From NCBI GenBank assembly GCA_964016885.1, contig OZ024748.1:34658001-34722000 (forward strand): a stretch of 64,000 nucleotides of DNA. Reading direction: 5' to 3'. Made by a program: the position numbers and the translations under genes. Origin of the DNA: Eledone cirrhosa. Its lineage: Eukaryota. The stretch's first letter is position 1. Every line of letters begins with the position of its first letter. This document shows, piece after piece, positions 27,880-55,585 of this stretch. The notes beneath the pieces were generated by a model that was given only the letters and a program-made list of their open reading frames with translations, made no database searches and had not been told where the DNA came from.

Positions 27880-28438
27880 TTGGACAGTAATAACTTCAAC
27901 AATGGCAGATATCCTGGCCATGAAGAAATTATGGAATTTTTACGCAAACTGGGTCTCCTGGTCAACAGTATTGACAATAGGTCATCAATGGACGACGCCG
28001 ACTCAGAATCTGCTGAAAGAATGAAAAAAGTGAACCCTTACAGTTTCCAAGGCTCCAGAGGTAAAAGAATAAACGCAAACAGTTTCATGGGTTCCCGGGG
28101 CAAAAGACTCCTCGTTAACAACAAACGGACTGTCAGTGCTAATACTTTCGTCGGATCAAGAGGTAAACGATTGGTGTCCGTACTCAGTGACAAACCACAA
28201 GTAACTGACCTTATCGATAAAAAATCAGATGCTTTAGCATTCGTCCCGACTAGAGGAAGATCGCAGCAGCTCGATGAGGATCTGGCTTACACGGGTCCCA
28301 TGTTATTGAGAGAAGGCCGAAGAATGAATGCTTTATCGTTTGGACCAACGAGAGGTAAAAAATATAGTGCCGTTGACTTCATTGGATCGAGAGGCAAGAA
28401 AAATAACCTTGAAGATTTTGTGTTAAACAATCGAAATG
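27880..28438 (+). CDS. TKRP: Tachykinin-related peptide precursor, internal exon with six amidated peptides
   Basis: Acceptor TTTCCCTAG after a long (CT)n tract; donor AATG|GTAATT, phase 1. Encodes VNPYSFQGSR, INANSFMGSR, TVSANTFVGSR, SDALAFVPTR, MNALSFGPTR and YSAVDFIGSR, each after a dibasic site and followed by Gly plus basic residue(s). FxGxR-amide is the protostome TKRP signature. Confidence 0.95.
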
Positions 28439-28549
28439 GTAATTTCTCACATTTTATTCTCTGATTGTGCTTACTATTATTCAGGACGTTGTTGAAGTTG
28501 GTATTATTATTATTATTATTATTATTATTATTATTATTATTATTATTTT

Positions 28550-29497
28550 TATTACAGTTGCATTTATCTTGCTTTATGTTCATACGAGTTATCACCAAGT
28601 CACAACCAGTGACCTCAAGAGACAACAAGGTCCGCCATGTTCAAGAAAGAACATACATACTCACACATGCATCTTTAGTGTTTAGACTTGTGATGTACTT
28701 ATATTGACAGAATCTTCCTTAGTATATGGGCAGTTCCCATTAGTACTATCTTTTGTATTTCTCCTATACGCGGGTTTCCTGGGATTTGCGATAAGTAATA
28801 ATTATACCCCTTAGGTATCATTCCCAGAGCGCCTACAACCACTGGTATTGTTTTAGTTCTCAATTTCCACATTTTTCCAATTTCTATCTCCAGGTCCTTA
28901 TACTTTTTCAAATGTTTTTATAGATACATTCTTGTCGGACATATCAATTAGCGGACATATCAATTAGCGGGCATACCCTCTTTTTAAAGTCCTTCAATAT
29001 TATATCAGGTCTATTTGCATCTATTTTTCGGTCTGTTTGGATGCTAAAGTTCCACAAGATTGAGATGTGATCTTTTTCAAGTATGGGAGGTGGTTGATGC
29101 TCCCACCAATTCTTTTGATGGGGCAGGTCAAAATGCTTACACATTATCCAATGTATGTATTGTGCAGCTCTGTCATGCCTGTTTAGGTATTCGGTTGGAA
29201 CTATAGGACTGCACATTGAAATTATATGGTCAATGGTCTCTGGTTGGTTTTTTGCATACACGGCATAATGGGCTGCATCCATTTTTTATTATGTTGGCTT
29301 GGTAAATTTTTGTTGGCAGACACTGATCTTGTGCTGATATAATCAGTCCTTCAGTCTCCGATTTCAGTCCAGAGGATGCCAACCACTGATGGGTTAAAGT
29401 TTTGTCAACATCAGGATTGTTAGCTCGTTCTGGGTATTTTCCATACAGAGGCTTTTCTTGCCATTTCTTAGCCAGTTTCTGTAGCAGTTCTTTCTTT
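28550..29497 (-). mobile_element. R4/Dong-like non-LTR retrotransposon, family A, 5'-truncated and degenerate
   Basis: ETIDHIISMC..YLNRHD, IQTDRKIDANRPDI, KYKDL, IPVVVGALG, GTAHILRKILS. A 16-bp duplication (CGGACATATCAATTAG x2, near 28936) shifts the frame. (TAA)n on both sides. Confidence 0.9.
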
Positions 29498-29540
29498 TAT
29501 TATTATTATTATTATTATTATTACCATTGTTATTGTTATT

Positions 29541-30230
29541 CCTTGAATCTCAGTCATTGATGTTGGTTAACTGGAAAGTCCGTTGGATTGAATATCAAGC
29601 CACTACCTGCAGCCTCAGATATTCAGGACGTATCGGAGGGTTCTTGCTGTTCCAAGCAAGCATGCCTTTTGAAGCGTTCCAAAAAGCGTGAAGGGGCCGA
29701 TTTTCTTTAACCATCCCTGGAAACCTTTGGAGATAGTCCCCAGTGCGCCTATGACAATCGGGATCACTTTGACTTCATGGCAGTTCCAAATCCTTTTCAC
29801 CTCCCACTTTAGGTCCTGGTATCAGTTAATTTTCTCCCTCTCCTTCTCTTGCACTCTCGTGTCGAACGGGCAGGCCACATCCACAATCAGGCACGATCTT
29901 TTTTCTTTGTCCACAACCACCAGGTCAGGTCTACTGTGTTCCAGTTTTTTGTCCTTCTGTATCCTAAAATCCCACAGCACCTTCACCTGACTGTTCTCCA
30001 TCACCGCCTCTGGCCTATGCTCATACCATTTCTCAGAATGTGGTAGATTGTTTACTTTGCACAGGTGCCAGTGGATCACCCTGCCCATCACATCGTGTCT
30101 CCAGCCCTTATAGTGGGTCTGGGCTAGGTGTTTACACTCGGACACAATGTGAGCCACAGTCTCCTCTCTCTCTCCACAGATCCTGCACAGTGGGCTAGCC
30201 TCCTCCTTGTAGATATGGTGCTTCAACCAC
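29541..30230 (-). mobile_element. R4/Dong-like element, family B, 3' fragment
   Basis: Zinc knuckle [18 protein letters not shown] and endonuclease RPDLVV..IVDV. Closely similar to 53317-54010, including the 3' UTR. In-frame stop at 29822. Confidence 0.92.
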
Positions 30231-30432
30231 TGATGGGTTAAAGTTTTGTCAACATCACTGATCTTGTGCTGATATAATCAGTCCTTCAGTCTCCGATTTC
30301 AGTCCAGAGGATGCCAACCACTGATGGGTTAAAGTTTTGTCAACATCAGGATTGTTAGCTCGTTCTGGGTATTTTCCATACAGAGGCTTTTCTTGCCATT
30401 TCTTAGCCAGTTTCTGTAGCAGTTCTTTCTTT
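30224..30432 (-). mobile_element. Templated duplication of the adjacent family A sequence
   Basis: 30224-30257 equals 29380-29413, and 30256-30432 equals 29321-29497. Confidence 0.92.
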
Positions 30433-53256: not shown

Positions 53257-53316
53257 ATTATTATTATCATTATTATTATTATTATTGTTATTATTATTAT
53301 TATTATTATTATTATT

Positions 53317-55283
53317 GTTCTTTGAGTCTCAGTCATTGATGTTGGTTAACTGGAAAGTTTGTTGAAATGAATATCAAGCCACTACCTGCAGCCTCAGATA
53401 TTCAGGACGTATCGGAGGGTTCTTGCTGTTCCCAGCAAGCATGCCTTTTGAAGTGTTCCAAAAAGTGGGGCTGGACCAATTTTCTTTAACCATCCTTGGA
53501 AACTCTTTGAGATAGTACCTAGTGCACCTATGACAATCGGGACCACTTTGACCTCCTGGCAGTTCCAAATCCTTTTTACCTCCCACTTCAAGTCCTGGTA
53601 TCGGTTAATTTTCTCTCTCTCCTTCTCTTGCACTCTCGTGTCGAATGGGCAGGCCACATCTACAATCAGGCACGATCTTTTTCCCTTGTCCAAAACCACC
53701 AGGTCAGGTCTATTGTGTTCCAGTTTCTTGTCCGTCCGTATCCTAAAATCCCACAGCACCTTCACCTGATCGTTTCCATCACCGACTCTGGCTTATGCTC
53801 ATACCACTTCTCAGAATGTGGTAAATTGTTTACTTTGCATAAGTGCCAGTGGATCACGCTGCCCATCACATCATGTCTCCAGCTCTTATAGTGAGTCTGG
53901 GCTAGGTGTTTACACTCGGATACAATGTGAGCCACAGTCTCCTCTCTCTCTCCACAGATCCTACACAGTGGGCTAGCCTCCTCCTTGTAAATATGGTGTT
54001 TCAGCCACTTCGTTTTGAGGGCCTGCTCTTGCGCAGCCATTATCATTCCTTCTGTAGCCTTTTTAAGGTCTCCTCTTTTCAACCAGTTCCATGTCTGTGG
54101 ATCTCTAAATTCAGTTTTCTCAAAGAAGGCACTATGAAGGGATTTTTCATGAAGGTTTCTCTTTCTCCTTGTTGTTATTTCCTCCCTGGATATCCCCTGG
54201 TCTATTGTCCTCTCCTTCAGTACAATTCTGAGCATTGGCTCCCTACTATCAGTCACGTATTTGTGTAGGTTGTTTTTCTCCACCTGAACACAGTCCTCTA
54301 TGCTGATAAGACCTCTTCCACCTTCAGATCTCCTTAAGTAGAGTCTATCGACATCACTCCTTTTGTGGAACATGTTGTAGATAGTCAATAGCTTCCTAGT
54401 CTTCCTATCCATTTCTTTTTGTTCAGCAACATTCCATCTCAGAATTCCCGCACTGTACCTAATAATAGACACAGCTCGGGAATTCACTGCACTTATGGCA
54501 TTCCTACTGTTCAGATGTGACTTTAATGCGCTCCTTACTCTCCGAATGTATTCAGATCTTATCAATTCCTTCATTTTTTGGTTTTTGATGTCATCAGCCT
54601 CCAGAACACCTAAATACTTGTATCCCTCTTCAGTATCAATTTCCTTTATCTTCTCACCTGTTGGTATCTGGATTCCGTTGCTTCTGCTAAATTTACCCCT
54701 CTTCATCACAAGGACTCCACACTTACTAATACCAAATTGCATACATATATCGTTGCTGAAAATACGGACAGTGTCAACAAGCACATCCAACTCCCTCTCA
54801 CTCTTCCCGAAGAGCTTAAGATCGTCCATGAAGAGGAGGTGATTGATGGTAAGCTCTCCCTTTCCCAACTTGTATCCTGCCCTCACTTTTCGCAGTACAA
54901 TGGTCAGGGGGATCAGGGCAAGGACAAACAACAGAGGGGACAAACTATCTCCCTGGAAGATACCTCTCTTGATCCTCACGCCTCCCAATGATTCTCCGCC
55001 TGATGTTAACTTTGTTTTCCAGGACTTCATACTTTTGCTCAACAACTGTCTGATGTTATCTGCCACCCTGAAGATCTCTAGGCTTTTGGTTATCCAAGAA
55101 TGAGGTACCATGTCGAATGCCTTTTTGTAGTCTATCCATCCCATGGCAAGACCAGTGTGTCTCCTCCTGCAATTCCTCATTACCATTTTATCAATAAGTA
55201 ACTGGTCCTTTGCAGCATGGGACTTCTTTCGGCATCCTTTCTGTTCGTCCGGTAACAAGTTGTTTTTGTGGAGGTGATGGAAG
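53317..55283 (-). mobile_element. R4/Dong-like non-LTR retrotransposon, family B, 5'-truncated (RT, zinc knuckle, restriction-like endonuclease)
   Basis: ORF 53762-55258 has [47 protein letters not shown] and GGRGL. Frameshift near 53765 into the endonuclease ORF 53394-53765. (TAA)n at both ends. Confidence 0.95.
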
Positions 55284-55335
55284 ATTATTATTATTATTAT
55301 TATTATTATTATTATTATTATTATTATTATTATTA

Positions 55336-55445
55336 TTCAAATCCAGCCGAGATTAACTTTGCCTTTCATACTTACGGGGTCGATAAAATAAAGTACCAGT
55401 AATGTACTGGGTAATTGCTGGCCTTGTGCCTAAAGTAGAAACAAT
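55336..55445 (+). mobile_element. Family 1 SINE, 5'-truncated, followed by (ATT)n
   Basis: TTCAAATCCAGCCGAGATTAACTTTGCC...GGCCTTGTGCCTAAAGTAGAAACAATTATT. Confidence 0.9.
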
Positions 55446-55505
55446 TATTATTATTATTATTATTATTATTATTATTATTATTATTATTATTATTATTATT
55501 TACAG

Positions 55506-55585
55506 ATTCGCCAAAGGAGAACTATGAAAGGAGGGCGTCTTTCCACAACACATTCATACCTTCACGAGGCAAGCGATCCACATAA
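55506..55585 (+). CDS. TKRP: TKRP precursor terminal coding exon with the seventh peptide ASFHNTFIPSR-amide
   Basis: Acceptor TTTACAG|AT; G+AT gives Asp in phase with the donor at 28438. Reads DSPKENYE-RR-ASFHNTFIPSR-GKR-ST*. AATAAA at 55601, 55611 and 56055. Confidence 0.92.

What the first reader, a model, noticed from the sequence alone, without database searches (positions are those of the whole stretch)
27880..55585. Seven-peptide tachykinin-related precursor completed by a hidden 80-nt exon 27 kb downstream
Seen: the ORF track runs past a phase-1 donor at 28438/28439. A matching acceptor at 55505/55506 gives ...NNRN-D-SPKENYE-RR-ASFHNTFIPSR-GKR-ST*. Intron 28439-55505 is almost all satellite and retroelement. 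Known: the Octopus vulgaris TKRP precursor carries seven peptides, and as I recall the last is a similar AS..HN..FIPSR-amide. The signal-peptide exon was not found and may lie upstream of the window.
Basis: partly seen in the sequence, partly recalled or inferred. Interest (0 to 1): 0.75.

Follow-up and report, generated by a model that had tools for sequence, protein, structure and literature searches.

The report
Ordinary octopus tachykinin-related neuropeptide gene
This is an octopod's single copy of the known tachykinin-related neuropeptide gene: three coding exons spread over 98 kb, joined in a spliced contig from a public run, encoding a precursor predicted to release seven amidated peptides; it is real and ordinary.

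Summary
Confirmed and completed, but ordinary. Window 27880-28438 is the middle coding exon and 55506-55585 the coding part of the last exon of a tachykinin-related peptide (TKRP) precursor gene. A 1057-nt contig of run X1 follows 27878-28438 without a difference and continues with the letters of 55506 onward, so the proposed junction is shown. The missing signal-peptide exon lies 70,114 nt upstream of exon 2, outside the window (G000:C8:34615616-34615765), and the same contig joins it to exon 2. The 262-aa product is 83% identical to the Callistoctopus minor precursor and 82% to Octopus vulgaris BAD26598.1, with the same seven predicted peptides. Corrections: the last exon is not 80 nt long (80 nt is its coding part; 3' UTR likely reaches about 56088), and measured tandem repeats plus reverse-transcriptase elements fill about 71% of the intron, not almost all. 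All seven peptides end in Arg-Gly, none in FxGLM, so this is the endogenous neuropeptide gene, not the salivary venom tachykinin. New orthologue of a known gene; low interest.

The parts
1..27879 (+). 3' part of intron 1 (70,114 nt in all). Coding exon 1 (150 nt, 50 aa, start codon and predicted signal peptide) lies outside the window at G000:C8:34615616-34615765 = L003:1501-1650, ending in a GT donor, phase 0
   Evidence: (E 1.3e-19, 74% to residues 1-57 of P0009); the 30 loose letters before 27878 in the X1 contig equal L003:1619-1648
27880..28438 (+). Coding exon 2 (559 nt): spacer and predicted peptides I-VI; Phe codons of the cores FQGSR, FMGSR, FVGSR, FVPTR, FGPTR, FIGSR at 28045, 28084, 28147, 28240, 28339, 28378
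   Evidence: X1 contig lies on 27878-28438 with 0 other letters, 0 gaps
28439..55505 (+). Intron 2 (27,067 nt, GT-AG, phase 1): 49% tandem repeat (largest: 24-nt unit, 40718-48178), 23% reverse-transcriptase elements. The 26 nt 28439-28464 are the intronic read-through of the raw ORF
   Evidence: skipped in the X1 contig
55506..55585 (+). Coding part of exon 3 (80 nt): end of spacer, predicted peptide VII (core FIPSR, Phe codon at 55553), Gly-Lys-Arg signal, stop
55586..56088 (+). Likely 3' UTR of exon 3; AATAAA at 56055-56060 is the candidate poly(A) signal
   Evidence: X1 contigs cover 55510-55670 (depth 25.3) and 55726-56088 (depth 22.9), gap is a skipped repeat; DNA-like contigs of X2 and X3 go on past 56088. 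One run of one study: a weak hint for the end point

Best explanation
This is the single-copy, three-coding-exon gene for the octopod tachykinin-related peptide precursor, whose spliced form is seen in a contig and whose 262-aa product is predicted to be secreted and cut into seven amidated neuropeptides. Shown: exon order, both GT-AG junctions, an intact frame, seven Phe-X-Gly/Pro-X-Arg-Gly motifs each between basic residues. Inferred from orthology and established prohormone biology: the N-terminal signal peptide takes the precursor into the secretory pathway, prohormone convertases cut at the basic sites, carboxypeptidase trims them, the amidating enzyme turns each C-terminal Gly into an amide, and the peptides act on the octopus TKRP receptor in brain and gut ganglia, as reported for O. 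vulgaris. The long introns most likely reflect accumulation of satellites and retroelements in a 3.0-Gb genome and need no special mechanism.
For: Orthologues: 218 of 262 columns identical to C. minor BAB40308.1, 214 of 262 to O. vulgaris BAD26598.1, 211 of 261 to O. bimaculoides XP_014780997.1, 149 of 237 to A. hians. One parser finds 7 peptides in the window's precursor and in each of those three octopus precursors, 6 in Argonauta. Own-genome search with P0009 gives three matches at E below 1e-5, all on C8 in order, same strand; the 10 weaker ones are on C4, and the 5 of them I opened are a satellite. Junctions in run X1. The tree places the sequence in the octopod clade, support 100/100. 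Hydrophobic core at residues 12-29 after basic residues. O. vulgaris: seven peptides, receptor in the gastric ganglion, most sensitive to peptides II and III, insensitive to substance P (passages of PMC5736919 citing Kanda 2007).
Against: Run X1 is not on record as RNA and no tissue is given; its RNA origin is inferred from the two removed introns. It is one run of one study, and contigs drop rare isoforms. Three of seven peptides have Pro where the textbook FXGXRamide has Gly, but the O. vulgaris peptides deviate at the same places. No signal-peptide predictor, peptidomics or receptor assay was run. Pfam has no model for this precursor (0 families for exon 2 and for P0009).
Confidence: 0.96

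Rival explanations
1. The gene ends in the read-through at 28464 and makes a six-peptide precursor; the downstream piece is an orphan.
For: The ORF is open to 28464. P0010, an unnamed protein from another octopus, ends in a similar read-through.
Against: The X1 contig leaves the genome exactly at 28438 and continues in exon 3; X1 has depth 0 in 28456-28543 while X2-X4 run on to 28489. Full-length orthologues carry the exon-3 sequence. P0010 may simply be called on genomic DNA.
Confidence: 0.02
2. This is an exocrine (venom-type) tachykinin gene of the salivary gland.
For: Octopods do have salivary tachykinins (passages of PMC6880623; PMC13311285); the tissue of X1 is unknown.
Against: No FxGLM motif in the precursor or, as FxGLMG-basic, in 153.5 kb of flanks; all seven peptides end in Arg-Gly; 82% identity to the O. 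vulgaris TKRP precursor. PMC13311285 describes the venom peptides as unrelated in origin to the endogenous gene.
Confidence: 0.01
3. The spliced contig comes from a processed retrocopy in DNA, not from an mRNA.
For: The kind of run X1 is not on record.
Against: The genome search finds one locus only; X2-X4 show only the unspliced form; X1 holds 88 million letters of contigs against about 1,400 million for each of the others. A retrocopy would itself attest the same junctions.
Confidence: 0.01

Closest known systems
Octopus vulgaris tachykinin-related peptide precursor (BAD26598.1 / Q6F6I8)
   Same: Signal-like N-terminus, seven peptides in the same order with the same basic flanks, same C-terminal tail; 214 of 262 columns identical; peptide IV identical.
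   Different: Three residues shorter (gap before peptide IV); substitutions in six of seven peptides, most notably peptide V ends in Thr-Arg rather than Pro-Lys, and peptide VII has Phe for Leu at position 3.
Callistoctopus minor 'minor tachykinin' precursor (BAB40308.1 / Q9BLK5)
   Same: Closest sequence, 218 of 262 identical; peptides I, IV and VI identical.
   Different: Single or double substitutions in peptides II, III, V and VII; same three-residue gap.
Argonauta hians precursor (GAB1609282.1) and unnamed nine-peptide precursors (P0004 cluster, probably squid or cuttlefish; taxon inferred)
   Same: Same overall layout and last peptide; the partial model P0003 begins and ends at the columns of the two introns, which suggests shared intron positions (inference).
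   Different: Argonauta lacks peptide IV (6 peptides); P0004 has 9 peptides and 40% identity.
Aplysia californica TKRP precursor (PMC11365428, section 4 read)
   Same: Three-exon precursor gene, FXGXRamide peptides, neural expression and peptides confirmed by mass spectrometry there.
   Different: 165 aa with two peptide-coding motifs; intron positions not compared.
Cephalopod salivary tachykinins (eledoisin, OctTK-I and II)
   Same: Name and the Phe five residues from the C-terminus.
   Different: They end in FXGLMamide and act on prey receptors; no such motif here.

Membership tests
Protostome tachykinin-related peptide precursor (octopod orthologue) | Several paracopies ending in FX1GX2R followed by Gly | tested here: met
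   4 of 7 are FXGXR-G, 3 of 7 FXPXR-G; the O. vulgaris precursor has Pro in the same three; family motif from PMC6880623
Protostome tachykinin-related peptide precursor (octopod orthologue) | Basic cleavage sites on both sides of each peptide | tested here: met
   7 of 7 preceded by a dibasic pair; followed by Gly plus KR or KK, peptide IV by Gly plus a single Arg as in the orthologues
Protostome tachykinin-related peptide precursor (octopod orthologue) | N-terminal signal peptide | tested here: met
   Exon 1 found and joined; best 11-residue hydropathy windows of the protein lie in residues 12-29; 74% identity to the O. vulgaris N-terminus. Hydropathy and homology only, no dedicated predictor
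Protostome tachykinin-related peptide precursor (octopod orthologue) | Orthology: full-length match, single locus | tested here: met
   the genome search scores only its best candidates, so a very divergent second precursor is not excluded
Protostome tachykinin-related peptide precursor (octopod orthologue) | Spliced transcript | tested here: met
   one 1057-nt contig of run X1 with both introns removed
Protostome tachykinin-related peptide precursor (octopod orthologue) | Neural expression, mature amidated peptides, activation of the TKRP receptor | not testable with these tools
   tissue of X1 not on record; reported for O. vulgaris and Aplysia
Exocrine (salivary) cephalopod tachykinin | C-terminal FXGLMamide | tested here: not met
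   0 motifs in the precursor

The most novel reading that the evidence does not exclude
Peptide VII, alone on the last exon, is switched on and off by RNA processing. A GC-type donor-like site (AG|GCAAG, 55568/55569) sits inside the codon of its amidation glycine, and an O. vulgaris gene model (CAI9735013.1) departs from the normal C-terminus at exactly that residue, which would leave peptide VII unamidated; cleavage within the 27-kb intron would drop it altogether. That would be alternative splicing of a protostome tachykinin precursor, in the manner of the mammalian Tac1 splice forms. Against it: the X1 contig reads straight through the site, no exon for that alternative tail was found in about 108 kb downstream (best score 20 of a possible 78 among 7204 AG sites), and the O. 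vulgaris model is an unverified prediction whose DNA I did not see.
Probability: 0.08. Interest if true: 0.4.

Novelty: new member of a known kind. Interest (0 to 1): 0.1.

Why it matters
Mainly for annotation and comparative neuropeptidomics: it gives the full exon map and the predicted seven-peptide set for one more octopod, and shows how a 789-nt coding sequence spread over 97,970 nt can be cut short by gene callers (the O. sinensis model is partial at the same two places). It opens no new question, unless minor isoforms that remove or de-amidate peptide VII turn out to exist.

Tried and rejected
No RNA holder listed by the run search: 4 runs, kind not on record, one study; not used for or against expression. 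Paralogue on C4: 10 weak matches (E 0.6-9); the 5 opened are a tandem satellite; the other 5 lie in the same 20-kb stretch and were not opened. Tandem duplicate or further peptide exon nearby: motif scan and tblastn of 16 flanking stretches (153.5 kb) found exon 1 only. Exon for the alternative O. vulgaris tail: none in the window or downstream; a 15-residue query is weak, so a diverged exon is not excluded. RNA recoding: 0 other letters in the X1 contig over exon 2 and over 55510-55670; two differences in the 3' UTR (T>C at 55809, also in X2; C>A at 55928) are not A-to-G and look like alleles; contigs hide rare variants. Pfam: no family for the precursor. Earlier findings of this scan near the place: none. 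Kanda et al. 2007 is not held and was seen only through passages citing it. Structure prediction was not run: short peptides in a disordered precursor.

Full report
Observation. The sequence is as described. An AG acceptor precedes 27880, a GT donor follows 28438 after 559 nt (phase 1), an AG acceptor precedes 55506, and 80 nt lead to a stop at 55585; joined, the frame is open. Unspliced, the ORF runs to 28464. A loose six-frame scan for the peptide motif gave 9 hits in the window: six in 28045-28378, one at 55553 and two isolated chance hits. The window is G000:C8:34658001-34722000 in a genome of 2,995,841,428 bases.

Identity. The exon-2 protein found 4 relatives among 374 candidates, the best being the Callistoctopus minor 'minor tachykinin' precursor (80%, E 2e-92). 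Its cluster of 9 members includes Octopus vulgaris BAD26598.1 (named tachykinin-related peptide precursor), O. bimaculoides, O. sinensis and two O. vulgaris genome models. The last 26 residues of BAD26598.1 match window 55505-55582 at 96%. A profile-free search of the 50%-clustered library gave 7 proteins; the 3 new ones I opened are multi-copy precursors of the same type with no names; P0020 and P0023 were not opened. In a tree of 10 rows the sequence falls in the octopod clade (100/100) with no resolved sister; partial and duplicate rows were left out.

The missing exon. Searching the own genome with BAD26598.1 gave three strong matches, in order on C8 plus strand: residues 1-57 at 34615616, 51-240 in exon 2, and 239-265 in exon 3. 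Exon 1 holds the start codon and 50 codons, and ends in a GT donor. Intron 1 is 70,114 nt and intron 2 is 27,067 nt; 789 coding nt span 97,970 nt; the product has 262 residues.

Splicing shown. Of 4 runs that hold exon 2, X1 has a 1057-nt contig (depth 25.3) whose letters 292-852 lie on 27878-28438 without a difference. Its 30 loose letters behind 28438 equal 55506-55535, and its 30 loose letters before 27878 equal the end of exon 1 (compared). Laid on the downstream region, a record of the same length and depth places letters 857-1017 on 55510-55670, so no further exon lies between. X2, X3 and X4 instead run on into the intron to 28489. X1 is not on record as RNA; that is inferred from the removed introns. 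It is one run of one study. A second X1 contig covers 55726-56088 and stops 28 nt after an AATAAA at 56055-56060, so the last exon is probably about 580 nt, of which 80 are coding (weak hint for the exact end).

Peptides. One parser gives 7 peptides for this precursor and for those of C. minor, O. vulgaris and O. bimaculoides, 6 for Argonauta and 9 for the unnamed P0004. The cores here are FQGSR, FMGSR, FVGSR, FVPTR, FGPTR, FIGSR and FIPSR, each followed by Gly and a basic residue. Four fit FXGXR; the three with Pro deviate where O. vulgaris does. No FxGLM occurs, which separates it from the salivary tachykinins (family definitions from passages of PMC6880623; origin of the venom peptides from passages of PMC13311285). 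PMC5736919 (passages) reports seven characterised O. vulgaris peptides, the receptor in the gastric ganglion, and also cites a single nine-peptide precursor for cuttlefish and octopus; by my parse the O. vulgaris sequence has seven, and nine is what P0004 has. Kanda et al. 2007 itself was not available.

Conserved layout. The partial O. sinensis model P0008 begins and ends at the exon-2 borders, P0010 reads through at the same donor, and P0003 (a partial relative of the nine-peptide type) begins and ends at the same columns. I infer that both intron positions are shared across coleoids; no relative's DNA was examined. The Aplysia precursor gene also has three exons (PMC11365428, section 4 read).

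The intron. Tandem repeats cover 49% and reverse-transcriptase elements 23%, 71% together (RVT_1 in 2 of 9 retroelement-like ORFs scanned). Three pieces of one non-LTR element family on the minus strand each lie between ATT arrays, which recalls the TAA-targeting Dong elements (passage of PMC3812793; a Dong element is on record in O. bimaculoides, passage of PMC9115989); the clade was not tested. The acceptor of exon 3 has 19 ATT units in place of a pyrimidine tract and is nevertheless used.

Mechanism. Shown: exon structure, splicing, intact frame, motifs. Inferred: secretion, convertase cleavage, amidation, action on the TKRP receptor in nervous tissue. Rivals (six-peptide read-through, venom-type gene, retrocopy) fail.

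Most novel reading. O. vulgaris model CAI9735013.1 differs from its sister model from the amidation glycine of peptide VII on, and the window has a GC-donor-like site in that codon. [quoted passage not shown] Here the only contig reads through the site and no matching downstream exon was found, so I give it 8%.

Literature coverage. Three searches on the peptide listed 15, 1 and 14 papers; no title or abstract start in these listings concerns the exon structure of the cephalopod gene, but I read passages of only six papers in all, no supplements, and subscription papers are not held; full-length genome models in O. vulgaris and O. bimaculoides already imply this structure.

Verdict. Interest 0.1.

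Noticed in passing
window 28548-29498, 29523-30433, 53317-55283 (minus strand): Three truncated pieces of one non-LTR retrotransposon family (RVT_1, Cys/His knuckle, endonuclease-like C-terminal part), each bounded by ATT arrays; two abut near the donor and one lies 220 nt from the acceptor. Looks like a TAA-microsatellite-targeting Dong-type element; clade not tested.
   Followed up: partly
window 55444-55505: The acceptor of exon 3 is preceded by 19 ATT units instead of a pyrimidine tract, the same kind of array that flanks the retroelements; a look-alike ATT array ending in TACAG sits at 28503-28556, near the donor, and is not used in the X1 contig.
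   Followed up: partly
window 55565-55575: GC-donor-like site inside the amidation codon of peptide VII, at the residue where O. vulgaris model CAI9735013.1 changes to another tail; not used in X1.
   Followed up: partly
window 50230-52991 (+): A second, unrelated non-LTR element with RVT_1, broken by several stops, inserted in intron 2.
   Followed up: partly
window 1-15361, 20570-22313, 40718-48178, 60784-64000: Large tandem arrays (periods 36-39/75, 30, 24 and 40 nt) with strong strand skew that give stop-free frames of up to 2470 codons; not genes on present evidence.
   Followed up: no
window 28563-28700 and 55347-55440: Very high-copy short dispersed repeats next to both ends of intron 2 (summed contig depth of hundreds of thousands to millions in X2 and X3).
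   Followed up: no
window 38764-39718: A 494-nt direct duplication (96% match) beside a retroelement C-terminal fragment at 39720-40109.
   Followed up: no
G000:C4:71147000-71166300 (L005-L009): A satellite of about 36-nt units with long open frames that gives spurious weak hits to basic-site-rich neuropeptide precursors.
   Followed up: yes
P0002 (Argonauta hians): The argonaut precursor lacks peptide IV and its spacer, giving six peptides against seven in the octopus precursors and nine in P0004.
   Followed up: no
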